64,000 bases of DNA from Escherichia coli (GTDB taxonomy: Bacteria; Pseudomonadota; Gammaproteobacteria; Enterobacterales; Enterobacteriaceae), in the NCBI RefSeq assembly GCF_044324785.1, contig NZ_CP172127.1, one strand, 5' to 3'. The notes under the pieces were generated by a model. That model ran no database searches. It was not told the origin of the DNA and saw only the letters and a list, made by a program, of their open reading frames with translations. The translations under genes were made by a program, and so were the position numbers. Shown here piece by piece: positions 1-45,374 of this stretch (positions are counted from its first letter, which is position 1; the number at the start of each line of letters is the position of its first letter).

Positions 1-240
1 CAAAATATCTCGATGGATCTCCCGGAAACCCTGCAAAGCCAGGCGATGCTGGAAAAACTGATGCAGACTCGCGTGCGTAACCTGCTGGCACAACCGGCAG
101 CGGGGACAACGGAAGCTAAACCTGCACCTGCACCTGCACCTGCACCTGCACCTGCACCTGCACCTGCACCTGCACCTGCACCTGCACCTGCACCTGCACC
201 GCAAGCTGATACTCCGGCAGCCGCGCCGCAAGGAGAATAA
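1..240 (+). CDS. hemX: HemX C-terminal part (5' end lies upstream of the window), ends in a Pro-Ala repeat
   Basis: Open frame from position 1 to TAA at 238-240; sits immediately upstream of hemY as in the hemCDXY operon. Identity rests on synteny and the recalled operon, not on a search. Confidence 0.8.
121..198. repeat. Perfect hexanucleotide tandem repeat (CCTGCA) x13 encoding (Pro-Ala)13 inside hemX
   Basis: Counted directly: 13 uninterrupted CCTGCA units in frame, flanked by GAAGCTAAA and CCGCAAGCT. Confidence 0.97.
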
Positions 241-242
241 CC

Positions 243-1439
243 ATGCTAAAAGTGTTATTGCTCTTTGTTTTGCTGATTGCGGGGATAGTGGTTGGCCCGA
301 TGATTGCCGGTCATCAGGGTTACGTGCTGATCCAGACCGACAACTACAATATTGAAACCAGCGTCACTGGCCTGGCGATTATTTTGATTCTGGCGATGGT
401 AGTGCTGTTTGCCATTGAGTGGCTACTGCGGCGGATCTTCCGCACTGGCGCGCACACCCGTGGGTGGTTTGTCGGACGTAAGCGTCGCCGTGCCCGTAAG
501 CAGACCGAACAGGCGCTGCTGAAACTGGCGGAAGGCGATTATCAGCAAGTTGAAAAGCTGATGGCGAAAAATGCCGATCACGCTGAACAACCGGTGGTGA
601 ACTATCTACTGGCTGCCGAAGCCGCGCAACAACGTGGTGATGAAGCACGCGCCAACCAACATCTGGAACGCGCAGCGGAGCTGGCCGGCAACGACACAAT
701 TCCGGTAGAAATCACCCGTGTACGTCTGCAACTGGCCCGTAATGAAAACCATGCAGCACGTCACGGCGTTGATAAGCTGCTGGAAGTTACGCCACGCCAT
801 CCGGAAGTATTACGTCTGGCGGAACAGGCGTATATCCGCACAGGTGCATGGAGTTCGCTGCTGGATATCATCCCATCAATGGCGAAAGCCCACGTTGGCG
901 ATGAAGAACATCGTGCAATGCTGGAACAACAGGCATGGATTGGCCTGATGGATCAGGCGCGCGCCGATGACGGTAGCGAAGGTTTGCGAAACTGGTGGAA
1001 AAACCAAAGCCGGAAAACGCGTCATCAGGTGGCGTTACAGGTGGCAATGGCGGAACATCTTATTGAATGTGACGATCATGATACTGCTCAGCAAATTATC
1101 ATCGACGGCCTGAAACGCCAGTATGATGATCGTCTGCTGCTGCCGATCCCGCGTCTGAAAACCAATAACCCGGAACAGCTTGAAAAAGTGCTGCGCCAGC
1201 AAATCAAAAACGTCGGCGATCGCCCGCTGTTGTGGAGCACACTGGGTCAGTCGCTGATGAAGCACGGAGAATGGCAGGAAGCATCGCTCGCCTTCCGCGC
1301 AGCGCTGAAACAACGTCCGGACGCCTACGATTACGCATGGCTTGCCGACGCGCTGGACAGACTGCACAAGCCGGAAGAAGCCGCAGCGATGCGTCGCGAT
1401 GGCTTGATGTTAACGTTGCAGAACAACCCGCCACAGTAG
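243..1439 (+). CDS. hemY: HemY, 398 aa inner-membrane TPR-like protein
   Basis: 398 aa ORF with N-terminal hydrophobic segments; length and position after hemX match E. coli HemY. Confidence 0.93.
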   Translation: MLKVLLLFVLLIAGIVVGPMIAGHQGYVLIQTDNYNIETSVTGLAIILILAMVVLFAIEWLLRRIFRTGAHTRGWFVGRKRRRARKQTEQALLKLAEGDYQQVEKLMAKNADHAEQPVVNYLLAAEAAQQRGDEARANQHLERAAELAGNDTIPVEITRVRLQLARNENHAARHGVDKLLEVTPRHPEVLRLAEQAYIRTGAWSSLLDIIPSMAKAHVGDEEHRAMLEQQAWIGLMDQARADDGSEGLRNWWKNQSRKTRHQVALQVAMAEHLIECDDHDTAQQIIIDGLKRQYDDRLLLPIPRLKTNNPEQLEKVLRQQIKNVGDRPLLWSTLGQSLMKHGEWQEASLAFRAALKQRPDAYDYAWLADALDRLHKPEEAAAMRRDGLMLTLQNNPPQ

Positions 1440-1486: not shown

Positions 1487-1693
1487 AAAAAAACGCCTGC
1501 TCTTATTACGGAGCAGGCGTTAAAACAGGTCTGTATGACAACAAGTGGGTGCTTCACTCAACGTTGTGTCCATGGTGTCTGATGAGGCATAAGCGACATC
1601 TGTCAGTGGACGATAAGCACCGTAAACGGCTCTGCGTCATTCCGGAGTTTATGAGGCACTAAGGCGAACATAAGAGATGGAATGAGCATCTAC
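1487..1693 (-). ncRNA. glmZ: GlmZ small RNA (about 207 nt) with intrinsic terminator at its 3' end
   Basis: Minus-strand sequence begins GUAGAUGCUCAUUCC and ends in a hairpin (stem 1493-1502 / 1511-1520) plus U7, matching the recalled GlmZ sequence; location between hemY and aslA matches the known locus. Confidence 0.8.
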
Positions 1694-2117: not shown

Positions 2118-3773
2118 ATGGAATTTTCGTTTTCACCCAAACTTCTTGTTGTGGCTGTCGCCGCCGCTCTTCCACTCATGGCCAACGCAGCAGATACCCC
2201 GTCAACCGCCACCGCACGCAAAGGCTTTGCCGGATACGATCACCCAAACCAGTATCTGGTTAAACCGGCGACCACTATTGCCGACAACATGATGCCGGTG
2301 ATGCAGCATCCTGCACAAGACAAAGAAACCCAGCAGAAGCTGGCAGAACTTGAGAAAAAAACCGGTAAGAAACCGAACGTGGTTGTTTTCTTGCTGGATG
2401 ATGTGGGCTGGATGGATGTTGGCTTTAACGGCGGCGGCGTGGCGGTGGGTAACCCTACACCAGATATCGACGCCGTTGCCAGCCAGGGGCTGATTTTAAC
2501 TTCGGCGTATTCTCAACCGAGTTCTTCCCCAACCCGCGCCACGATTCTTACCGGACAATACTCCATCCACCACGGCATTCTGATGCCGCCAATGTACGGG
2601 CAACCGGGCGGTCTGCAAGGGTTAACCACTCTGCCGCAGTTGCTGCACGATCAGGGCTACGTCACTCAGGCCATCGGGAAATGGCATATGGGGGAAAACA
2701 AAGAGTCGCAGCCGCAGAACGTTGGCTTTGATGATTTCCGCGGCTTTAACTCGGTATCCGATATGTATACCGAATGGCGTGATGTTCACGTCAACCCGGA
2801 AGTCGCCCTGAGCCCGGATCGTTCTGAATACATCCAAAAACTGCCGTTCAGCAAAGATGACGTTCATGCCGTGCGCGGCGGTGAACAGGAAGCCATTGCC
2901 GACATTACGCCGAAATATATGGAAGACCTGGATCAACGCTGGATGGAATATGGCGTTAAGTTCCTCGACAAGATGGCGAAGAGCGATAAGCCTTTCTTCC
3001 TCTACTACGGCACTCGCGGCTGTCACTTCGATAACTACCCAAATGCGAAATATGCGGGTAGCTCTCCGGCGCGCACCTCTTACGGCGACTGCATGGTGGA
3101 GATGAACGATATCTTCGCCAATCTGTATAAAGCACTGGAGAAAAACTGTCAGCTTGATAACACGCTGATTGTGTTCACCTCTGATAACGGTCCGGAAGCC
3201 GAAGTTCCGCCGCACGGTCGCACACCGTTCCGCGGTGCGAAAGGTTCTACATGGGAAGGCGGCGTTCGTGTGCCAACCTTCGTTTACTGGAAAGGCATGA
3301 TCCAACCGCGTAAATCTGACGGCATTGTCGATCTGGCGGATCTCTTCCCTACGGCGCTGGATCTGGCGGGGCATCCTGGGGCGAAAGTAGCGAATTTAGT
3401 ACCGAAAACCACCTTTATCGATGGTGTGGACCAGACATCTTTCTTCCTGGGAACAAATGGTCAGTCTAACCGTAAGGCCGAGCACTACTTCCTCAACGGT
3501 AAACTTTCTGCTGTGCGTATGGATGAGTTCAAGTATCACGTCCTGATCCAGCAACCGTACGCGTATACCCAGAGCGGGTATCAGGGTGGATTCACCGGCA
3601 CAGTAATGCAAACGGCGGGATCGTCGGTGTTTAACCTGTACACCGATCCGCAGGAAAGCGACTCCATCGGCGTGCGCCATATCCCAATGGGTGTACCGCT
3701 ACAGACCGAAATGCACGCGTATATGGAGATCCTGAAAAAATATCCACCACGCGCGCAGATTAAATCTGATTAA
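2118..3773 (+). CDS. aslA: Arylsulfatase-family protein AslA, 551 aa with signal peptide
   Basis: 551 aa ORF; N-terminal signal-like segment and sulfatase-type motifs (LLDDVGW, sulfatase fold); length matches E. coli AslA. Confidence 0.92.
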
Positions 3774-3809
3774 GCCGGCGCTATCGCTACATCGGGCCAC
3801 ACTGACCTT

Positions 3810-3839
3810 GCCGGATGCGGCGTGAACGCCTTATCCGGC
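3810..3839. repeat. REP (repetitive extragenic palindromic) element
   Basis: GCCGGATGCGGCGTGAACGCCTTATCCGGC matches the E. coli REP consensus; lies between convergent aslA and aslB. Confidence 0.75.
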
Positions 3840-3851
3840 AATCAACCGCAG

Positions 3852-3876
3852 GCGGCCACAAAATGGCCGCTTTTTT
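3852..3876 (+). terminator. Intrinsic terminator after aslA, overlapping the aslB stop
   Basis: GCGGCCA / TGGCCGC stem with CAAAA loop followed by TTTTTT. Confidence 0.6.
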
Positions 3877-5110
3877 ACTTATTCACCACCATCAAATGCG
3901 CCTGCATAATGTCGCTGGCCGGACGACCGTGCGCCAGCAAATCAGCCATTGCTTTAAGATATGGCGGTAGATGGCGGAAATAACGCTGATACCCGGCACA
4001 CAAATAATTCAGCCCGGGTTTGCCGCTGGCATCGAGCATAAAGCGGTGTTTCGGACAGCCTCCCCAGCACGCTTTTAACACGTTGCAACTGCGACACTGC
4101 GCCGGTAACTGCTTAAATTTATCTTCACCAAACACCTGCTGTTGCGGGGAATCGATCATTTCTGCAATTGTTTGCTGGTGCATATTCCCCAGCCGATATT
4201 GCGGATAAACATAGTGATCGCAGGCGTAAACGTCGCCGTTGTGCTCAACAATCACCGAGCGCCCACAGGTTGGCTGATGATGGCAAACCGCACCTGGCGC
4301 ACCGACAAAATTGGCAAACGTCCATTCGATATTCATCACGAAAATCTTGCCGACGTCGCGTTTAATCCAGTGGTCGAATATCGCCACCAGAAATTCACCA
4401 AATTCATCGGGGCGCACCGACCATTCCGTCAGTTCGCCCTGAATATCGCCAGGCGCATGCAATTTCAGTCCATCGCGGGCAGCTGTTTCATCAGCCAGAC
4501 GCTCGACCACCGGAATAAACTGGATGAATTCCACTCCCGCATCGCACAAAAAATCATAAACCTGCAACGGTTGCTGCGCGCTGGTGCGGTTGACGCAGAC
4601 CAGCACGTTATAGTCGACATGATGTTTTTGCAGGAGCGTCAGGGCACGCATCACCAGCTTATGCGTTGGTCTGCCGCCTTTGGTCACGCGATATTGATTG
4701 TGGATCTCAGCCGGACCATCCAGCGATAACCCAACAAGAAAATGATTTTCTGCCAGAAATGCACACCATTCGTCATCAAGCAGAACGCCGTTAGTCTGGA
4801 AGCTGTTACTTATCTTCCTGCCAGCACCATATTTCGCCTGTAGCACCACGGCACGGCGGTAAAAATCCAGCCCGAGTAACGTTGGTTCGCCACCCTGCCA
4901 GGTAAAAGCCACTTCGTTTTGGGTTTCGCTGGCAGCGATATAGTGACGGACATACGCTTCCAGCGTGTCATCGTCCATATGAGTGACTGGCTTTTCGCGG
5001 TAAAGGGATTGTTTTTCGAGATAAAAACAGTAGTCACAGTTCAGATTACAATCGGAACCGCTCGGTTTCGCCATCACATGAAAAGCACGCGTTGGAACCT
5101 GTTGCAGCAT
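3875..5110 (-). CDS. aslB: Anaerobic sulfatase-maturating enzyme homolog AslB (radical SAM), 411 aa
   Basis: ORF with CxxxCxxC radical-SAM motif (CNLNCDYC). Start placed at ATG 5108-5110 (MLQQVPTRAF...) to match the recalled 411 aa; the ORF track start at 5140 is 10 codons longer. Confidence 0.88.
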   Translation of the reverse strand: MLQQVPTRAFHVMAKPSGSDCNLNCDYCFYLEKQSLYREKPVTHMDDDTLEAYVRHYIAASETQNEVAFTWQGGEPTLLGLDFYRRAVVLQAKYGAGRKISNSFQTNGVLLDDEWCAFLAENHFLVGLSLDGPAEIHNQYRVTKGGRPTHKLVMRALTLLQKHHVDYNVLVCVNRTSAQQPLQVYDFLCDAGVEFIQFIPVVERLADETAARDGLKLHAPGDIQGELTEWSVRPDEFGEFLVAIFDHWIKRDVGKIFVMNIEWTFANFVGAPGAVCHHQPTCGRSVIVEHNGDVYACDHYVYPQYRLGNMHQQTIAEMIDSPQQQVFGEDKFKQLPAQCRSCNVLKACWGGCPKHRFMLDASGKPGLNYLCAGYQRYFRHLPPYLKAMADLLAHGRPASDIMQAHLMVVNK

Positions 5111-5256: not shown

Positions 5257-5333
5257 TGGTCGGCGAGAGAGGATTCGAACCTCCGACCCACTGGTCCCAA
5301 ACCAGTTGCGCTACCAAGCTGCGCTACTCGCCG
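5257..5333 (-). tRNA. proM: tRNA-Pro (anticodon UGG)
   Basis: 77 nt; reverse complement reads CGGCGAGUAGCGCAGCUUGGUAGCGCAACUGGUUUGGGACCAGUGGGUCGGAGGUUCGAAUCCUCUCUCGCCGACCA; cloverleaf and anticodon loop read manually. Confidence 0.95.
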
Positions 5334-5375
5334 AAATACTGCTTTTTGAATTTTTAGTTCAATTCTTTAAAGTCG

Positions 5376-5462
5376 TGGTGCGAGGGGGGGGACTTGAACC
5401 CCCACGTCCGTAAGGACACTAACACCTGAAGCTAGCGCGTCTACCAATTCCGCCACCTTCGC
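5376..5462 (-). tRNA. leuT: tRNA-Leu (anticodon CAG), long variable arm
   Basis: 87 nt, 5' GCGAAGGUGGCGGAAUUGGUAGACGCG..., anticodon loop CUUCAGG, ends CCA. Confidence 0.95.
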
Positions 5463-5482
5463 ATTGTCACAACTTCTAATAA

Positions 5483-5559
5483 TGGGGTGGCTAATGGGAT
5501 TCGAACCCACGACAACTGGAATCACAATCCAGGGCTCTACCAACTGAGCTATAGCCACC
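5483..5559 (-). tRNA. hisR: tRNA-His (anticodon GUG) including the extra 5' G-1
   Basis: GUGGCUAUAGCUCAGUUGGUAGAGCCCUGGAUUGUGAUUCCAG...CCA read on the minus strand. Confidence 0.95.
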
Positions 5560-5616
5560 ACTACAAATCTTGTTACGCGGTATTACTACCACCGCAGCTC
5601 AAGCGCCGGGACTAAA

Positions 5617-5693
<77 letters not shown>

Positions 5694-21965: not shown

Positions 21966-22295
21966 TTACGCCAGGTTAGCGTCGAGGAACTCTTTCAACT
22001 GACCTTTAGACAGTGCGCCCACTTTGGTTGCCGCCACTTCACCGTTTTTGAACAGCAGCAGAGTCGGGATACCACGGATACCATATTTCGGCGCAGTGCC
22101 AGGGTTTTGATCGATGTTCAGTTTTGCAACGGTCAGTTTGCCCTGATATTCGTCAGCGATTTCATCCAGAATCGGGGCGATCATTTTGCACGGACCGCAC
22201 CACTCTGCCCAGAAATCGACGAGGATCGCCCCGTCCGCTTTGAGTACATCCGTGTCAAAACTGTCGTCAGTCAGGTGAATAATTTTATCGCTCAT
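21966..22295 (-). CDS. trxA: Thioredoxin 1, 109 aa
   Basis: Start at [13 protein letters not shown]...; WCGPC active site; the ORF track adds 35 upstream codons. Confidence 0.95.
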
Positions 22296-22425
22296 ATATA
22301 ACTCCACAGGAATAAGCCTGGCGTGTTGGTTTCGTTGTTGGTGTAACATTAACCAACTTAAGGTTGACTTTATTTCACCGGATACGCTTTCGTAAAGCAA
22401 TAGTAAGCTGATATTCTACCACACT

Positions 22426-23825: not shown

Positions 23826-25310
23826 ATGGGTTCCACCTCGTCGCTGTATGCAGCCATTGATCTCGGTTCGAATAGTTTTCATATGCTGGTTGTGCGCGAG
23901 GTGGCTGGAAGCATCCAGACGCTGACGCGAATTAAACGCAAAGTGCGTCTGGCTGCTGGCCTGAACAGCGAAAATGCCCTGTCTAATGAAGCAATGGAGC
24001 GCGGTTGGCAATGTCTGCGCCTGTTTGCTGAACGTCTGCAAGATATCCCTCCCTCGCAAATTCGCGTTGTCGCTACGGCGACATTACGACTTGCCGTCAA
24101 TGCGGGTGATTTTATTGCCAAAGCGCAGGAAATCCTCGGTTGTCCGGTACAGGTGATCAGCGGTGAAGAGGAAGCGCGTCTGATTTATCAGGGCGTTGCT
24201 CACACCACTGGCGGTGCCGATCAGCGCCTGGTGGTGGATATAGGTGGTGCCAGTACTGAACTGGTAACCGGCACGGGTGCACAAACCACCTCTTTGTTCA
24301 GCCTGTCGATGGGCTGCGTCACCTGGCTGGAACGCTATTTTGCCGATCGTAATCTGGGGCAGGAAAATTTTGATGCTGCAGAAAAAGCGGCACGCGAAGT
24401 GTTACGTCCGGTTGCCGATGAATTACGGTATCACGGCTGGAAAGTGTGCGTTGGCGCTTCCGGCACTGTGCAGGCGTTACAGGAAATCATGATGGCACAG
24501 GGGATGGATGAACGCATTACCCTGGAAAAGTTGCAGCAACTGAAACAGCGCGCCATTCATTGCGGTCGGCTGGAGGAACTGGAGATTGACGGGCTGACGC
24601 TGGAACGTGCGTTAGTGTTCCCGAGTGGTCTGGCAATCCTGATAGCCATTTTTACCGAACTGAATATTCAGTGTATGACCCTGGCGGGCGGTGCGCTGCG
24701 TGAAGGCCTGGTCTACGGCATGTTGCATCTGGCCGTCGAGCAGGATATTCGCAGCCGTACGCTGCGTAATATTCAACGCCGCTTTATGATCGATATTGAT
24801 CAGGCACAGCGCGTAGCCAAAGTTGCGGCTAACTTCTTCGATCAGGTGGAAAACGAATGGCATCTTGAAGCAATAAGCCGCGATTTGCTCATCAGCGCCT
24901 GCCAGCTTCATGAAATCGGCCTGAGCGTTGACTTCAAACAAGCGCCGCAACATGCTGCTTATCTGGTACGTAATCTGGATCTTCCCGGTTTTACCCCCGC
25001 ACAGAAAAAATTGCTGGCGACGCTACTGCTCAACCAGACGAACCCGGTCGATCTCTCATCGCTGCATCAGCAAAATGCCGTACCGCCGCGCGTCGCAGAA
25101 CAACTCTGTCGTTTACTCCGCCTGGCCATCATTTTTGCCAGCCGTCGTCGTGACGATCTCGTGCCAGAGATGACATTACAGGCTAACCATGAACTGTTGA
25201 CCTTGACGCTTCCGCAAGGTTGGCTAACCCAACATCCGCTGGGTAAAGAGATTATTGATCAGGAAAGCCAGTGGCAGAGCTATGTCCACTGGCCGCTGGA
25301 AGTGCATTAA
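23826..25310 (+). CDS. gppA: Guanosine pentaphosphate phosphohydrolase / exopolyphosphatase-family GppA, 494 aa
   Basis: Start at [18 protein letters not shown]... (Ppx/GppA N-terminal motif); the ORF track begins 3 codons upstream. Confidence 0.9.
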
Positions 25311-25319
25311 TGAGTAAGT

Positions 25320-25351
25320 GCCGGATGCGATGCTGACGCATTTTTTCCGGC
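25320..25351. repeat. REP-like palindromic unit between convergent gppA and rep
   Basis: GCCGGATGCGATGCTGACGCATTTTTTCCGGC resembles the GCCGGATGCG...TCCGGC REP family with a diverged centre. Confidence 0.5.
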
Positions 25352-25356
25352 CTTGA

Positions 25357-27378
25357 TTATTTCCCTCGTTTTGCCGCCATCATCGCTTTCAGATTCGCCA
25401 GATGGCTTTGCCCTTTCTGCATCCGTTCTTCGGCGCTCACCACTTTGCGCTCCTGTTCCCAAATCAGATCATCCTGCGGCAGCTCCAGCAAAAAGCGGCT
25501 CGGCTCCGGGCGCACCAGTTCGCCGTACTGACGGCGTTCTTTACACAGCGTAAAGGTCAATTCCTTCTGGGCGCGGGTAATGCCGACATAGGCCAGCCGC
25601 CGCTCCTCATCGATATTATCTTCATCGATGCTGCTCTGGTGCGGCAAAAAACCTTCTTCCATACCGACCATGTAGACATAAGGAAACTCCAGCCCTTTCG
25701 ACGCGTGCAGAGTCATCAGTTGTACCTGATCCAGCTCTTCCTCACTCTCGCCGCGCTCCATCATGTCGCGCAGAGTAAAGCGCGTCACCACCTGGGTGAG
25801 CGTCATCGGCTCATCCAGTTCGCTGCCTTCCAGCATCTCCGTCATCCAGCTAAACAGTTGGTTGACGTTCTTCATGCGCATTTCGGCAGCTTTCGGGCTG
25901 GGCGATGTTTCGTACAGCCAGGATTCATAATCCATGCCGTGGATCAGATCACGCACCGCGGCAATCGGCTCCCGCTCCGCCAGGCGCTGGATTTCTGCCA
26001 ACCAGTGAGTGAAGCGGGTCAATGCTTCATAACCACGTCCGCTAAGCGTCTGACTCAGGCCCATATCAAAGCTGGCGGTAAACATGCTTTTATTGCGCGT
26101 CATCGCCCACTCACCCAGCTTTTTCAGCGTAGCCGGGCCAATCTCTCGCTTCGGCGTGTTAACGATACGCAGAAATGCGCTGTCATCGTCCGGGTTAGTC
26201 AGCACGCGCAGATAAGCCAGCAAATCCTTGATTTCAGGACGAGAGAAAAACGACGTACCACCAGAAATTTTGTACGGGATGCGGTTTTGCATCAGGAATT
26301 TTTCAAACACCCGCGACTGATGGTTACCGCGATAAAGAATGGCGTAATCTTTGTACTGCGTTTTATTGACGAAGTGATGGGCGATCAGCTCGCCAGTAAC
26401 GCGCTCGGCTTCATGTTCTTCGTTATTCGCGCTTAAAACTTTTAGCTCCGCGCCATAGCCCAGTTCGGAGAACAGACGCTTTTCAAAGACGTGCGGGTTA
26501 TTGGCAATGAGGATGTTCGCCGCTTTCAGAATACGTCCGGAAGAGCGGTAGTTCTGCTCAAGCTTAATCACCTTCAGTGCCGGGAAATCCTGACTCAGCA
26601 GCACCAGGTTTTGCGGACGTGCGCCGCGCCAGGAGTAGATCGACTGGTCATCATCACCCACCACGGTAAAGCGCGCGCGGCTGCCCACCAGCAGTTTCAC
26701 CAGCTCATACTGGCTGGTGTTGGTGTCCTGATATTCGTCCACCAGCAGGTAGCGAATTTTGTTCTGCCAGCGTTCACGAACTTCTTCATTGCGTTGCAAC
26801 AGTAACGTCGGCAATAAAATCAGGTCATCGAAGTCGAGAACGTTACAGGCTTTCAGGTGTGCATCATACAGCCCATAACAATGGGCAAAAATACGATCCC
26901 GCTCGCCCTTTGCCTCTGCCGCCGCCTGCGCCGGAGTTTTGAGATCGTTCTTCCAGTTGGAGATGGTCGAAATCAGCTGTTGCAGGAGAACTTTGTCATC
27001 TTCAATCAGCCCCTCGGTCAGCTCTTTAAGCAAAGCAAGCTGATCGGTATCGTCAAACAACGAGAAGTTTGCTTTCATCCCAAGCGCCGCATACTCTCGT
27101 TTGATGATATCCAGCCCCAGTGTGTGGAAGGTGGAGATCATTAGCCCACGCGCCTCTTTGCGACCCAGCGTCTGCCCGACACGCTCTTTCATCTCGCGCG
27201 CCGCCTTATTGGTAAAGGTCACCGCCGCGATATGTCGCGCCTGATAACCGCAACCGCGGATCAGATGGGCGATTTTATTGGTGATAACACGAGTTTTACC
27301 GGAACCCGCGCCCGCCAGCACCAGGCAGGGGCCGGTAACGAATTCGACAGCTTGTTGTTGGCCGGGGTTTAGACGCAT
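25357..27378 (-). CDS. rep: ATP-dependent DNA helicase Rep, 673 aa
   Basis: Start at [29 protein letters not shown] (UvrD/Rep superfamily 1 motifs); the ORF track adds 5 codons. Confidence 0.93.
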
Positions 27379-29416: not shown

Positions 29417-30307
29417 GTGGATTTACGCGATCTGAAAACCTTCCTGCATCTGGCGGAAAGCCGCCATTTTGGCCGTAGCGCGCGGGCAATGCACGTTAGC
29501 CCGTCTACGCTTTCGCGACAAATACAGCGCCTGGAAGAAGATCTCGGTCAGCCGCTGTTTGTGCGTGATAACCGCACGGTAACGCTGACGGAAGCGGGCG
29601 AAGAACTGCGCGTTTTCGCCCAGCAAACACTGTTGCAATATCAGCAATTGCGCCACACCATCGACCAGCAAGGGCCGTCGCTCTCTGGTGAATTACATAT
29701 CTTCTGCTCGGTGACCGCTGCCTACAGCCATCTTCCACCGATTCTCGACCGCTTCCGCGCGGAACATCCGTCAGTGGAGATCAAACTCACTACCGGTGAT
29801 GCGGCCGATGCGATGGAAAAGGTGGTCACTGGCGAAGCGGATCTGGCGATTGCGGGTAAACCGGAAACCTTGCCGGGCGCAGTGGCGTTTTCGATGCTGG
29901 AGAATCTGGCGGTGGTGCTGATTGCTCCCGCGCTGCCCTGCCCGGTGCGTAATCAGGTATCTGTCGAAAAGCCCGACTGGTCTACAGTGCCGTTTATCAT
30001 GGCCGATCAGGGACCGGTACGCCGCCGCATTGAACTGTGGTTTCGGCGTAACAAAATCAGCAACCCAATGATTTACGCCACGGTTGGCGGGCATGAAGCG
30101 ATGGTATCGATGGTGGCGCTCGGCTGTGGCGTGGCGCTGTTGCCGGAAGTGGTGCTGGATAACAGCCCGGAACCGGTGCGTAACCGCGTGATGATTTTAG
30201 AGCGCAGTGATGAAAAAACGCCGTTTGAGCTGGGCGTGTGCGTACAAAAAAAGCGGCTTCATGAGCCGCTGATTGAGGCGTTCTGGAAGATTTTGCCGAA
30301 CCACTAA
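29417..30307 (+). CDS. ilvY: LysR-type regulator IlvY, GTG start
   Basis: Start at GTG ([23 protein letters not shown]...), helix-turn-helix at the N-terminus; the ORF track begins 28 codons upstream. Confidence 0.88.
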
Positions 30308-31848
30308 CCCGCCAAAAAGAACCTGAACGCCGGGTTATTGGTTTCGTCGTGGCAATCGTAGCCCAGTTCATTCAGCCGGGTTTCAAAATCCGGTTCATGA
30401 TCGCCAAGCTCGAACGCCGCCAGTACGCGCCCGTAGTCGGTACCGTGGCTGCGATAATGGAACAGCGAGATGTTCCAGTGCGTACCCAGCGTGTTGAGGA
30501 AGCGCAGCAGCGCGCCCGGTGATTCCGGGAATTCGAAGCTGTATAGGCGTTCCTGCAACGGATGCGATGGACGCCCGCCAACCATATAGCGCACGTGTAG
30601 CTTCGCCATTTCGTCGTCGGAGAGATCAACCACGCTGTAGCCGCCGTCGTTGAGCATCTGCAAAATTTCTTTGCGCTCTTCGAGACCGCGGCTCAGGCGC
30701 ACGCCGACAAAAATGCAGGCGTTTTTGGCATCAGCAAAGCGGTAGTTGAACTCGGTGACCGAGCGCCCACCAAGTAACTGGCAGAATTTGAGGAAGCTGC
30801 CCTTTTCTTCCGGAATGGTCACCGCCAACAACGCTTCACGCTGTTCGCCCAGTTCGCAGCGTTCCGAGACGTAGCGCAGACCGTGAAAGTTCACGTTGGC
30901 ACCGGAAAGAATATGCGCCAGCCGTTCACCGCGAATGTTGTGCTGGGCGATGTATTTTTTCATCCCTGCCAGCGCCAGCGCGCCAGAGGGTTCAGCCACC
31001 GCGCGTACATCTTCGAACAGGTCTTTCATCGCCGCACAGATGGCATCGCTATCGACGGTGATGATGTCGTCAAGATACTCCTGGCACAAACGGAAGGTTT
31101 CATCGCCGATGCGTTTTACCGCGACGCCTTCAGCAAACAGCCCCACGCGGGGCAGATCAACGGGATGACCCGCATCCAGCGCTGCTTTCAGGCAGGCGGA
31201 ATCTTCCGCTTCCACGGCGATCACTTTGATTTGCGGCATCAGTTGTTTGATCAGTACCGCGACGCCCGCCGCCAGACCGCCGCCGCCGACCGGTACAAAT
31301 ACGCGGTCGAGATGGGCGTCCTGCTGGAGCAGTTCCAGCGCCAGCGTGCCTTGCCCGGCGATCACCATCGGATGGTCGAACGGCGGTACCCAGGTGAAAC
31401 CCTGCTGCTGTGACAGTTCGATCGCTTTCGCTTTCGCTTCATCGAAATTTGCGCCGTGAAGCAGCACTTCGCCGCCAAAGCCGCGCACCGCATCAACTTT
31501 GATATCGGCGGTGGCGGTTGGCATGACGATCAGCGCCTTCACGCCTAACCGTGCGGAAGAAAACGCGACGCCCTGCGCGTGGTTACCCGCAGAAGCGGTG
31601 ATCACGCCGTGCGCTTTTTGTTCTTCCGTCAGGCCCGCCATCATGGCGTATGCGCCGCGCAGCTTAAAGCTGTGTACTGGCTGGCGATCTTCGCGCTTCA
31701 CCAGAATCACGTTATCAAGACGCGACGACAGTTTTTCCATTTTCTGTAGCGGCGTGACCTGCGCCGCTTCGTAGACCGGCGCGCGCAGCACCGCTCTTAA
31801 ATATTCGGCACCTTCCGGGGTACCGGACAGGGGTTGCGAGTCAGCCAT
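30304..31848 (-). CDS. ilvA: Threonine deaminase (biosynthetic), 514 aa
   Basis: 514 aa ORF with PLP-dependent fold and C-terminal regulatory domains. Confidence 0.95.
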   Translation of the reverse strand: MADSQPLSGTPEGAEYLRAVLRAPVYEAAQVTPLQKMEKLSSRLDNVILVKREDRQPVHSFKLRGAYAMMAGLTEEQKAHGVITASAGNHAQGVAFSSARLGVKALIVMPTATADIKVDAVRGFGGEVLLHGANFDEAKAKAIELSQQQGFTWVPPFDHPMVIAGQGTLALELLQQDAHLDRVFVPVGGGGLAAGVAVLIKQLMPQIKVIAVEAEDSACLKAALDAGHPVDLPRVGLFAEGVAVKRIGDETFRLCQEYLDDIITVDSDAICAAMKDLFEDVRAVAEPSGALALAGMKKYIAQHNIRGERLAHILSGANVNFHGLRYVSERCELGEQREALLAVTIPEEKGSFLKFCQLLGGRSVTEFNYRFADAKNACIFVGVRLSRGLEERKEILQMLNDGGYSVVDLSDDEMAKLHVRYMVGGRPSHPLQERLYSFEFPESPGALLRFLNTLGTHWNISLFHYRSHGTDYGRVLAAFELGDHEPDFETRLNELGYDCHDETNNPAFRFFLAG

Positions 31849-36623: not shown

Positions 36624-36674
36624 TTAGTTCCCCGTCCTGAATCTTGAGAAACAGAATTTTGTGCTGTTATTCAT
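36624..36674 (-). CDS. ilvX: Small peptide IlvX, 16 aa
   Basis: Manually translated [16 protein letters not shown] between the attenuator and ilvG, matching the recalled ilvX peptide. Confidence 0.55.
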
Positions 36675-36703
36675 TGTCTGCTCCTCGGTTATGTTTTTAA
36701 GGT

Positions 36704-36736
36704 CAAAAAAAACCCCCGGACCTTTCGGTGCGGGGG
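36704..36736 (-). terminator. ilvLXGMEDA attenuator terminator
   Basis: CCCCCG / CGGGGG hairpin followed on the minus strand by U8, directly downstream of ilvL. Confidence 0.8.
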
Positions 36737-36760
36737 TCTTAGTTCGTTAAGGCTTGATCT

Positions 36761-36859
36761 CTAAGCCTTTCCTCGTCCAAGTGCAGCCCCGCACGGTGGG
36801 ATAATAATCACCACCACGCTAATCACGACCAGGCTAATCACTCGTAGAAGGGCTGTCAT
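36761..36859 (-). CDS. ilvL: ilv operon leader peptide, 32 aa, rich in Val, Ile and Leu
   Basis: Manually translated MTALLRVISLVVISVVVIIIPPCGAALGRGKA with runs of regulatory Ile/Val/Leu codons. Confidence 0.88.
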   Translation of the reverse strand: MTALLRVISLVVISVVVIIIPPCGAALGRGKA

Positions 36860-37211
36860 TTTGTCTTTTCTTGCATCTTGTTCGAAGGAATGCCTAAAGA
36901 GTTACCATAGATTTTGCGAATAGCACAAGATATTTTTTGGCCGATTTTTATGATGCGTTTAATAATTTCAATAGAAATTGTTGTTTTTTAAAAAGAAAAT
37001 AGTGAGTGAAAAAAATTCAATTTCAGTATAAATGTTGTTCCCTTCCTCGTAGTTCATCCTTTGTCCGCTGCATTTTTGCGAGCATCATTCCACCGCCAGA
37101 ACAACTCAACTTCACTTGCACAAATAAACAGGAATCAGCCACTAAAATTCACGAATTAGCGGGCTACAGCAGCGATATCTTATGCACATAATGGTGACTC
37201 AAGGAGGGCTT

Positions 37212-40147: not shown

Positions 40148-40223
40148 TGGCAGGGGCGGAGAGACTCGAACTCCCAACACCCGGTTTTGGAGACCGGTGC
40201 TCTACCAATTGAACTACGCCCCT
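40148..40223 (-). tRNA. trpT: tRNA-Trp (anticodon CCA)
   Basis: AGGGGCGUAGUUCAAUUGGUAGAGCACCGGUCUCCAAAACCGGGUGUUGGGAGUUCGAGUCUCUCCGCCCCUGCCA on the minus strand. Confidence 0.95.
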
Positions 40224-40231
40224 AATTAGGG

Positions 40232-40308
40232 TGGCGGAACGGACGGGACTCGAACCCGCGACCCCCTGCGTGACAGGCAGGTATTCTAACCGACTGAACT
40301 ACCGCTCC
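40232..40308 (-). tRNA. aspT: tRNA-Asp (anticodon GUC)
   Basis: GGAGCGGUAGUUCAGUCGGUUAGAAUACCUGCCUGUCACGCAGGGGGUCGCGGGUUCGAGUCCCGUCCGUUCCGCCA on the minus strand. Confidence 0.95.
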
Positions 40309-40360
40309 ACCGAATTCTTTTACAACCACCGGTTTTATGACCGGCTTACTGCTTAATTTG

Positions 40361-40480
40361 ATGCCTGGCAGTTCCCTACTCTCGCATGGGGAGACCCCAC
40401 ACTACCATCGGCGCTACGGCGTTTCACTTCTGAGTTCGGCATGGGGTCAGGTGGGACCACCGCGCTACGGCCGCCAGGCA
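40361..40480 (-). rRNA. rrfC: 5S ribosomal RNA, 120 nt
   Basis: Reverse complement begins UGCCUGGCGGCCGUAGCGCGGUGGUCCCACCUGACCCCAUGCCGAACUCAG... and ends ...CUGCCAGGCAU. Confidence 0.95.
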
Positions 40481-40573
40481 AATTCTGTTTCATCAGACCG
40501 CTTCTGCGTTCTGATTTAATCTGTATCAGGCTGAAAATCTTCTCTCAATCCGCCAAAACAGCTTCGGCGTTGT

Positions 40574-43478
<2,905 letters not shown>

Positions 43479-43671
43479 TCACAACCCGAAGATGTTTCTT
43501 TCGATTCATCATCGTGTTGCAAAAATTTGAGAGACTCACGAACAACTTTCGTTGTTCAGTGTTTCAATTTTCAGCTTGATCCAGATTTTTAAAGAGCAAA
43601 TATCTCAAACATCACCCGAAGATGAGTTTTGAGATATCAAGGCAGGTGACTTTCACTCACAAACCAGCAAG

Positions 43672-43747
43672 TGGCGTCCCCTAGGGGATTCGAACCCCTG
43701 TTACCGCCGTGAAAGGGCGGTGTCCTGGGCCTCTAGACGAAGGGGAC
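43672..43747 (-). tRNA. gltU: Spacer tRNA-Glu (anticodon UUC)
   Basis: GUCCCCUUCGUCUAGAGGCCCAGGACACCGCCCUUUCACGGCGGUAACAGGGGUUCGAAUCCCCUAGGGGACGCCA on the minus strand. Confidence 0.95.
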
Positions 43748-43832
43748 GTATCAGTCTGCTTCGCAAGACGCCTTGCTTTTCACTTTCTATCAGACAATCT
43801 GTGTGAGCACTACAAAGAACGCTTCTTTAAGG

Positions 43833-45374
<1,542 letters not shown>

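What the first reader, a model, noticed from the sequence alone, without database searches (positions are those of the whole stretch)
3810..3839. REP elements at convergent gene junctions
A canonical REP lies between aslA and aslB, and a diverged REP-like unit lies between gppA and rep (25320-25351). These are typical E. coli extragenic elements; the second is unusually short and diverged, with a T6 centre, and may be a decayed copy.
Basis: partly seen in the sequence, partly recalled or inferred. Interest (0 to 1): 0.15.

Follow-up and report, generated by a model that had tools for sequence, protein, structure and literature searches.

The report
Two ordinary E. coli REP hairpins
Both sequences are members of the well-known REP family of small repeated DNA hairpins that sit between E. 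coli genes; this is ordinary, although the second one is a long-conserved, already catalogued element (REP286) and not a short decaying copy.

Summary
A covariance model built from 29 K-12 REP units taken from other loci scores site 1 (3809-3843) at 44.2 bits (E 2e-11). It scores site 2 (25319-25355) at 26.0 bits (E 1e-5). Nothing else extragenic in the 64 kb scores.

Site 1 is a Y-type unit. Its 30-nt core is identical to a K-12 REP elsewhere, but it lacks the family's CTAC/GTAG tail. It is a solo remnant of a two-unit BIME-1 that is still intact in K-12 and in strain E69.

Site 2 is not short: its core is 32 nt, against 30 nt for site 1. It is a Z1-like unit, listed as REP286 in K-12, and belongs to a small Escherichia subfamily with the core GATGC-TGAC-GCATC. 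It is present in 5396 of 5426 complete genomes. In one strain the REP-specific insertion sequence IS1397 sits in its loop.

The T6 run lies off-centre. It is created by a C-to-T change seen in none of 5403 genomes.

The likely roles are 3'-UTR hairpins for the convergent genes. These roles are inferred from the literature and were not tested here.

Already known; low interest.

The parts
3809..3839 (+). Site 1: solo Y-type REP (palindromic unit). The + strand reads 5'-T GCCGGATGCG GCGTGAACGCC TTATCCGGC-3', the 'iREP' orientation. The expected CTAC tail (3840-3843) is AATC.
   Evidence: Covariance model 44.2 bits, E 2e-11. Y-type HMM 38.4 bits. The core is identical to the K-12 unit at L014:49534-49563. 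The core matches a median of at least 30 places per E. coli genome. Hairpin free energy is -23.8 / -22.8 kcal/mol on the two strands.
3850..3880 (+). Intrinsic-terminator-like hairpin plus T-tract, 10 nt downstream of the REP. It is oriented for aslA. Its T-tract overlaps the aslB stop codon (3875-3877, - strand).
   Evidence: Terminator scan: 9-pair stem with 6 G-C pairs, then TTTTACTTAT. Folded. K-12, strain B and E. whittamii lack this hairpin.
3771..3773 (+). aslA stop codon, 35 nt before the REP.
25319..25354 (+). Site 2: Z1-like REP, the counterpart of K-12 REP286 (NC_000913.3 3962701-3962736). Outer stem 25320-25325 / 25346-25351. Inner stem 25329-25333 / 25338-25342. Loop TGAC. The tail is CTTG where the family has CTAC.
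   Evidence: Covariance model 26.0 bits, E 1e-5. Z1-type HMM 16.4 bits; the K-12 allele scores 22.4 bits. REP286 is listed in the Harris et al. 2026 supplement. Hairpin free energy is -19.5 / -17.2 kcal/mol, against -21.3 / -21.6 for the K-12 allele.
25334..25337 (+). Hairpin loop TGAC. This is the insertion point and 4-bp target duplication of IS1397 in strain JNE25-005.
25342..25342 (+). Private C-to-T substitution that creates the T6 run (25341-25346). It turns a G-C pair into G-U on the gppA-sense RNA and breaks that pair on the rep-sense RNA.
   Evidence: No full-length exact match in 5403 genomes; the best is 79/80. Allele comparison. Energies.
25308..25310 (+). gppA stop codon, 8-9 nt before the hairpin.
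25357..25359 (-). rep stop codon, 5 nt from the foot of the hairpin stem on the rep-sense strand.

Best explanation
Both features are REP elements, also called palindromic units. These are the abundant 30-40-nt imperfect palindromes of E. coli intergenic DNA.

Site 1 is a Y-type unit left alone after a 70-bp deletion. An ancestral BIME-1 had a Y unit, an L linker and a Z1-like unit. The deletion ran between two 7-nt direct repeats (ATCCGGC) and removed the linker, the partner unit and the CTAC tail.

Site 2 is the orthologue of K-12 REP286. It is a Z1-like unit of a minor Escherichia subfamily. It is fixed at the gppA-rep junction and carries one private C-to-T change in this strain.

How they most likely work is inferred from published work on other REPs and was not tested at these loci. 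Each is transcribed into the 3' untranslated ends of both convergent genes and folds into a stable hairpin on either strand. Such a hairpin impedes 3'-to-5' exonucleases and promotes pausing or partly Rho-dependent termination of convergent transcription.

At site 1 the hairpin lies upstream of a separate intrinsic terminator for aslA, so it would act as a second barrier.

At site 2 the hairpin is the only structure in a 46-nt gap. It starts 8-9 nt after the gppA stop and 5 nt after the rep stop. That is inside the window of under 16 nt in which REPs were reported to stall terminating ribosomes and lower protein output.

Both units lack the GTAG/CTAC tetranucleotide that the REP transposase RayT needs. 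I therefore infer that they can no longer be mobilised.
For: Identity (shown):
- Covariance model and HMMs trained on K-12 units from other loci hit only these two extragenic places in 64 kb.
- Across 463 kb of Escherichia DNA the two sites rank 87th and 110th of 113 hits.
- The hairpin is supported by covariation over 74 distinct units: 97.2% of cells are paired, against 26-45% in the slid controls.
- The site 1 core is identical to another K-12 REP and matches at least 30 places per genome.
- The only REP-derived Rfam family, naRNA4, gives partial matches below its threshold at both sites.
- Site 2 is listed as REP286.
- The 20-nt core of site 2 occurs in 17 other canonical, CTAC-tailed units, often next to Y units.
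- IS1397 is published as inserting specifically into REPs (PMC1525189). It sits exactly in the site 2 loop in one strain.

Origin of site 1 (shown by alignment):
- E. coli E69 has the same left flank and the same Y unit, followed by CTAC, the linker, GTAG and the Z1 unit, then the same right flank.

Function (from the literature):
- REP325 acts as both stabiliser and partial Rho-dependent terminator. About 60% of REPs lie between convergent genes, and such gene pairs show higher expression (bioRxiv 10.64898/2026.03.23.713779).
- REP286 overlaps an in-vitro Rho-binding peak on the rep-sense strand.
- The rule that REPs must lie under 16 nt from a stop codon to lower translation is cited in PMC12306157.
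- The requirement of GTAG for RayT binding and cleavage is in PMC3333891.

Constraint on site 2:
- It is present in 5396 of 5426 genomes.
- The 46-nt spacer of the common allele is 46/46 identical in two cryptic-clade Escherichia.
Against: - No expression, 3'-end or half-life data for these two loci were examined, so every functional step is by analogy.
- The Harris et al. preprint reports large locus-to-locus variance and no general half-life effect of terminal REPs.
- Site 2 scores in the low tail of the family: 26 bits, against 50-59 for full members.
- The private substitution weakens the site 2 hairpin by 1.8 to 4.4 kcal/mol.
- The Rho-binding peak is an in-vitro result and is not flagged as bicyclomycin-sensitive in vivo.
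- The conservation test rests on only two outgroup genomes, and recombination between clades could mimic it.
- K-12 and E69 differ in their left flank as well as in BIME orientation, so the history of the aslA-aslB junction is not fully resolved.
Confidence: 0.85

Rival explanations
1. Site 2 is a neutral relic slowly decaying, with no present role.
For: - It has lost the CTAC tail and has a U-U mismatch in the outer stem.
- It has a low family score.
- In this strain a further substitution weakens the hairpin.
- Other strains carry a stem-breaking G-to-A change or a loop T-to-C change.
Against: - It is present in 99.4% of complete genomes, and most carry one identical allele.
- The whole 46-nt spacer is 46/46 identical between K-12 and two cryptic-clade Escherichia. 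At a third-position divergence of 10-22%, about 5-10 differences would be expected. The chance of none at 12% divergence is about 0.003 by my calculation.
Confidence: 0.2
2. Site 2 is an ordinary bidirectional intrinsic terminator that resembles a REP only by chance.
For: - It is a GC-rich hairpin between convergent genes.
- This strain has a run of six T.
- The Harris et al. preprint notes that a few REPs coincide with intrinsic terminators.
Against: - The terminator scan finds nothing on either strand.
- The T run lies inside the hairpin and not after it. It is CTTTT in all other genomes.
- The rep-sense strand has no U-tract.
- Its first 27 nt are identical to a canonical BIME unit, and it shares its core with 17 dispersed units.
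- IS1397 targets it.
Confidence: 0.03
3. The elements act mainly at the DNA level, as binding sites for gyrase, IHF or DNA polymerase I, or as nucleoid organisers, and not as RNA hairpins.
For: REPs and BIMEs are reported binding sites for these proteins (PMC1525189). The K-12 allele of the aslA-aslB junction has the BIME-1 L linker, which frequently carries an IHF site (PMC3333891).
Against: - In the window both are single units and neither has an L linker.
- The 2026 preprint found no chromosome compaction and no REP-REP contacts for its model REP.
Confidence: 0.07

Closest known systems
E. coli Y-type REP / palindromic unit (for example the K-12 unit between yfeW and yfeX, and the Y units of REP325)
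   Same: The 30-nt core of site 1 is identical. It has the same two-base bubble in the stem, the same extragenic position and the same high copy number.
   Different: Site 1 has AATC where the family has CTAC/GTAG. It has no partner unit.
K-12 REP286 (rep-gpp junction, NC_000913.3 3962701-3962736)
   Same: It is the orthologous position with the same flanks. 45 of the 46 intergenic bases are identical.
   Different: One C-to-T change at 25342 creates the T6 run and weakens the hairpin.
BIME-1 (Z1 unit + L linker + Y unit) at the aslA-aslB junction of K-12, B, O157 and E69. By position this is probably the K-12 entry REP287 (inference).
   Same: Same locus, same right flank, and the same Y unit as in E69.
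   Different: The window keeps only the Y unit. The 70 bp carrying CTAC, the linker, GTAG and the Z1 unit are missing. K-12 has the pair in the opposite orientation with a different left flank.
Rfam RF02564 naRNA4 (the RNA of two REP325 hairpins)
   Same: One hairpin of the model aligns to each site (37.9 and 22.4 bits).
   Different: Both scores are below the gathering score of 59.5. Each site has a single hairpin, not the pair.

Membership tests
REP / palindromic unit, Y type (site 1) | Imperfect GC-rich palindrome of 30-40 nt with an internal two-base mismatch | tested here: met
   Free energy -23.8 / -22.8 kcal/mol, z-scores -5.6 / -4.8. All 12 model pairs are formed and the bubble is retained.
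REP / palindromic unit, Y type (site 1) | Sequence match to the family consensus | tested here: met
   Y-type HMM 38.4 bits, E 4.7e-11. Covariance model 44.2 bits. Core identical to a K-12 unit.
REP / palindromic unit, Y type (site 1) | Conserved GTAG (CTAC on the other strand) at the foot of the hairpin | tested here: not met
   3840-3843 reads AATC. The tail was lost in the deletion inferred from the E69 allele.
REP / palindromic unit, Y type (site 1) | Dispersed in many copies, in extragenic positions | tested here: met
   Median of at least 30 megablast places per genome. It lies between two stop codons.
REP / palindromic unit, Z1-like (site 2) | Imperfect palindrome plus sequence match to the family | tested here: met
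   Covariance model 26.0 bits, E 1e-5, with one non-standard pair. Z1-type HMM 16.4 bits, E 3.6e-4, against 5.6 bits for the Y-type model. It is in the low tail: rank 110 of 113.
REP / palindromic unit, Z1-like (site 2) | Belongs to a dispersed set of near-identical copies | tested here: met
   The 20-mer GGATGCGATGCTGACGCATC occurs 19 times in six Escherichia genomes. Two of these are the gppA-rep junction itself. The other 17 are CTAC-tailed units at other loci.
REP / palindromic unit, Z1-like (site 2) | Conserved GTAG/CTAC tetranucleotide | tested here: not met
   25352-25355 reads CTTG, in all alleles seen.
REP / palindromic unit, Z1-like (site 2) | Recognised as a target by a REP-specific insertion sequence | tested here: met
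   IS1397 lies in the loop with a TGAC duplication in strain JNE25-005. Its specificity is per PMC1525189.
REP (both sites) | Bound and cleaved by the REP transposase RayT (TnpA-REP) | not testable with these tools
   Predicted negative because GTAG is absent (PMC3333891). This needs a biochemical assay.
BIME-1 | Two inverted units (Z1 and Y) separated by the long L linker | tested here: not met
   The window has one unit and no linker. K-12, B, O157 and E69 have the full pair.
Intrinsic (Rho-independent) terminator (site 2) | Hairpin followed directly by a U-tract | tested here: not met
   No site on either strand. The T run is inside the hairpin.
Rfam RF02564 naRNA4 | Score at or above the gathering threshold (59.5 bits) | tested here: not met
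   37.9 bits at site 1 and 22.4 bits at site 2. No hit at gathering level.

The most novel reading that the evidence does not exclude
REP286 (site 2) is no longer just a repeat. It is an exapted, selectively maintained 46-nt 3'-end module shared by gppA and rep. One hairpin lies within ribosome reach of both stop codons. It would tune the translation, termination and stability of the alarmone hydrolase and the helicase together. This would explain why the whole spacer is invariant across Escherichia clades.
Probability: 0.25. Interest if true: 0.3.

Novelty: already known. Interest (0 to 1): 0.1.

Why it matters
It matters little. REPs have been known since 1984, and both loci carry catalogued REPs in K-12.

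The work is useful as a clean annotation of this window: one solo Y unit, one REP286 orthologue with a private substitution, and one empty REP site.

It is also a small worked example of how REP junctions differ between strains. The differences seen are deletion between arm repeats, pair inversion, insertion-sequence targeting, and a gene deletion that ends in a unit.

If the constraint on the gppA-rep spacer is real, it offers a compact natural case for testing how one hairpin serves two convergent genes.

Tried and rejected
- A fixed-spacing IUPAC version of the 1984 REP consensus, recalled from memory, found nothing, not even site 1, because the loop length was wrong. I replaced it with models trained on real K-12 units.
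- The generic repeat finder showed no REP family in the window, because only two units are present.
- The local RefSeq copy of MG1655 carries no repeat_region features, so annotation could not be read directly. The REP286 name came from a preprint supplement instead.
- The Liang et al. 2015 paper is not held. The under-16-nt rule is cited second-hand from PMC12306157.
- I considered reading the T6 run as a terminator U-tract. I rejected it, because the run lies inside the stem and internal loop and is private to this sequence.
- I considered the covariance-model hit at 939-959 (17.2 bits) as a third REP. I rejected it, because it has only the outer stem and lies inside the hemY reading frame.
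- A simple inversion does not fully relate the K-12 and E69 BIME-1 alleles, because their left flanks differ.
- I did not run a cross-genus scan of the gppA-rep junction. A degenerate coding pattern in metagenomes would have been swamped by E. coli.

Full report
**What is in the sequence**

The window is E. coli chromosome. Its closest complete genome is strain N3. It is in reverse orientation relative to K-12 coordinates of about 3.93-3.99 Mb.

Positions 3810-3839 read GCCGGATGCGGCGTGAACGCCTTATCCGGC. They lie between the stop of aslA (+ strand, ending at 3773) and the stop of aslB (- strand, 3875-3877).

Positions 25320-25351 read GCCGGATGCGATGCTGACGCATTTTTTCCGGC. They fill most of the 46-nt gap between gppA (+, ending at 25310) and rep (-, ending at 25357). 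Both gene pairs are convergent.

**Formal search**

Rfam has no general REP family, and a scan at gathering level finds nothing at either site. The one REP-derived family is naRNA4, built from two hairpins of REP325. It gives partial matches below its threshold at both sites: 37.9 bits (E 1.5e-5) and 22.4 bits (E 0.038).

I therefore built my own models:
- I fetched 250 kb of K-12 in five chunks.
- I collected 47 units from the four chunks that do not contain the two test junctions. Of these, 30 are distinct.
- I built HMMs for all units and for the Y, Z1 and Z2 types.
- I built a covariance model with the 12-pair hairpin.

With nhmmer, site 1 scores 38.4 bits on the Y model (E 4.7e-11). Site 2 scores 16.4 bits on the Z1 model (E 3.6e-4) but only 5.6 bits on the Y model. 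All other hits have E above 0.2.

With the covariance model and filters off, site 1 scores 44.2 bits (E 2.2e-11) and site 2 scores 26.0 bits (E 1.1e-5). The next hit is at 939-959, 17.2 bits. It is only an outer stem and lies inside the hemY reading frame.

Across 463 kb of Escherichia DNA the model finds 113 units. Full members score 50-59 bits. Site 1 ranks 87th and site 2 ranks 110th. Over the 74 distinct units, 97.2% of pair cells are standard pairs and five pairs show compensatory changes. Slid controls give 26-45%. That alignment is fitted to the model, so it leans towards the structure.

**Site 1 in detail**

The 30-nt core is identical to a K-12 Y unit at another locus, between yfeW and yfeX. 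It matches a median of at least 30 places per E. coli genome by megablast.

Where the family has CTAC (GTAG on the other strand), site 1 has AATC.

Comparison across strains explains this:
- K-12, B and O157 carry a BIME-1 at this junction. It consists of a Z1-like unit, CTAC, the long L linker, GTAG and a Y unit.
- E. coli E69 and E. whittamii carry the same kind of pair in the opposite orientation.
- E69 shares the window's left flank (ACATCG.GCCACACTGACCTT), the same Y unit with its GTGAAC loop, and the same right flank (AATCAACCGCAGG).
- The window equals the E69 allele minus 70 bp, lost between the two ATCCGGC arm repeats.

Site 1 is thus a solo unit left by deletion. This is an inference from the alignment.

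Further alleles exist. One is a chimeric single hairpin, made by deletion between two CGCATC repeats. Another is a deletion of about 1.5 kb of aslA whose end lies in the aslA-proximal unit.

From the evenly spaced hit list, rough shares are:
- solo unit: about 10% (an upper bound of 612 genomes)
- chimeric hairpin: about 17%
- BIME-1: about 40%
- aslA-deleted: about 32%

Ten nucleotides downstream of the REP, a separate hairpin with a T-tract (3850-3880) has the form of an intrinsic terminator for aslA. Its T-tract overlaps the aslB stop codon. K-12 and B lack this hairpin.

**Site 2 in detail**

It is not short. The core is 32 nt, against 30 nt for site 1.

It is a Z1-like unit with the GCCGGA outer stem. 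Its first 27 nt (TGCCGGATGCGATGCTGACGCATCTT in the common allele) are identical to the Z1-like unit of the K-12 aslA-aslB BIME.

Relative to the usual Z1 inner stem (GACGC/GCGTC) it has GATGC/GCATC. That is a compensatory pair change.

An exact-match scan of 100,044 species genomes for the 20-nt core gave 24 matches:
- 19 are in six Escherichia genomes.
- 17 of those are CTAC-tailed units at other loci, often beside Y units.
- 2 of those are the gppA-rep junction itself, in two cryptic-clade Escherichia.
- 5 are elsewhere: four in unrelated taxa, and one on a 243-nt contig labelled Bacillus hominis that looks like an Escherichia REP locus.

Site 2 therefore belongs to a small genuine REP subfamily.

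It corresponds to REP286 of K-12 (3962701-3962736, convergent, rep/gpp) as listed in the supplement of Harris et al. 2026.

In strain JNE25-005, IS1397 sits exactly in the hairpin loop with a TGAC target duplication. IS1397 is published as inserting specifically into REPs (PMC1525189). Seven genomes in all lack a full-length copy.

Compared with the subfamily consensus, the common allele has:
- one arm change (TTATCC to TTTTCC, giving a U-U mismatch)
- CTTG in place of CTAC

**The T6 run**

The run occupies 25341-25346. It covers part of the inner stem, the internal loop and the first outer-stem base on the 3' side. The loop is TGAC at 25334-25337.

The run exists only because of a C-to-T change at 25342. 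No complete genome among 5403 has this base, and the best full-length match is 79/80.

The change costs 1.8 kcal/mol on the gppA-sense RNA (G-C becomes G-U) and 4.4 kcal/mol on the rep-sense RNA. I cannot tell a real rare variant from a sequencing error.

**Decay or constraint**

The element is present in 5396 of 5426 genomes.

In two cryptic-clade Escherichia, third codon positions of the flanking 600 nt of gppA and rep are 78-90% identical to the window. Yet the 46-nt spacer differs from the window only at the private base, so it is 46/46 identical to K-12. At 12% divergence, the chance of no change in 46 sites is about 0.003 (my calculation).

This argues against ongoing neutral decay. It rests on two genomes, however, and recombination could mimic it. 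Some E. coli strains do carry a stem-breaking G-to-A change or a T-to-C change in the internal loop.

**How they probably work**

Nothing here was measured at these loci. What follows is inference from published REP biology.

About 60% of REPs lie between convergent genes, and about 30% of convergent gaps hold one. REP325 both stabilises the upstream mRNA and acts as a partly Rho-dependent terminator. Convergent pairs with a REP show higher expression (bioRxiv 10.64898/2026.03.23.713779).

The same supplement lists REP286 as overlapping an in-vitro Rho-binding peak on the rep-sense strand (3962712-3962817). It is not flagged as bicyclomycin-sensitive.

[quoted passage not shown] 2015, as cited in PMC12306157). 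Site 2 starts 8-9 nt after the gppA stop and 5 nt after the rep stop, so it qualifies on both strands. Site 1 is 35 nt from the aslA stop and does not qualify.

The simple terminator scan finds no intrinsic terminator at site 2.

RayT needs GTAG and the stem mismatch to bind and cleave (PMC3333891). Both units lack GTAG, so I infer that they are no longer mobilisable.

**Comparison and verdict**

Both are members of a known family at loci where K-12 has catalogued REPs. Each fails one defining feature, the tetranucleotide, so each is best called a tail-less unit of that family. Neither is a BIME in this strain.

Nothing here would surprise a specialist. The finding is correct in substance, wrong in a few descriptors, and of low interest.

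Noticed in passing
window 30298-30310 (ilvY/ilvA junction): K-12 has a 58-nt segment here holding a Z2 REP followed by T5 (GTAGGCCTGATAAGCGAAGCGCTATCAGGCATTTTTCC). By position it is probably the REPt285 named as a REP-terminator in the 2026 preprint. The window lacks the segment. Its two convergent stop codons overlap (CTAA), and IlvY is one residue shorter.
   Followed up: partly
window 3774-3874, compared with L004, L005-L011, L027 and L034: The aslA-aslB junction has at least five alleles in Escherichia. These include BIME-1 in both orientations, with different left flanks that a simple inversion does not explain.
   Followed up: partly
L011:540-640, corresponding to window 2258-3809: About a third of complete E. 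coli genomes (roughly 1760 of 5426) lack about 1.5 kb of aslA. The deletion joins ...CCAGTATC to CACAGAACGC, so its 3' end lies in or at the edge of the aslA-proximal REP of the BIME-1.
   Followed up: partly
window 3850-3880: The aslA terminator-like hairpin (GGCGGCCACAAAATGGCCGC plus T6) is replaced in K-12, B and E. whittamii by a shorter sequence that forms no hairpin (GGCGGCCGCCGATTTCTAC). Its T-tract overlaps the aslB stop codon.
   Followed up: no
L019:1540-1600 and 2940-2990 (strain JNE25-005), corresponding to window 25334-25337: IS1397 is inserted in the loop of the gppA-rep REP with a 4-bp TGAC duplication. Seven of 5403 genomes lack a full-length copy of the junction.
   Followed up: partly
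window 939-959 (- strand): A REP-like outer stem (CGCCTGAT..ATCAGGCCAAT) lies inside the hemY reading frame. The covariance model gives it 17.2 bits (E 0.006). It is probably chance.
   Followed up: partly
window 95-218: A tandem CACCTG / GCACCT hexanucleotide array of about 20 copies sits near the start of the window. It is probably coding, in hemX.
   Followed up: no
window 1487-1693, 5260-5693, 22266-22365, 36641-36930, 40151-45374: Rfam finds GlmZ, a four-tRNA cluster, the trxA thermometer, a Rev39 5' UTR match and a complete rRNA operon with its tRNAs. All are expected for this chromosome region.
   Followed up: no
L033 (243-nt contig labelled Bacillus hominis): This contig carries an Escherichia-type REP with flanks nearly identical to the E. 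coli loci L025 and L041. That suggests contamination of the Bacillus assembly.
   Followed up: no
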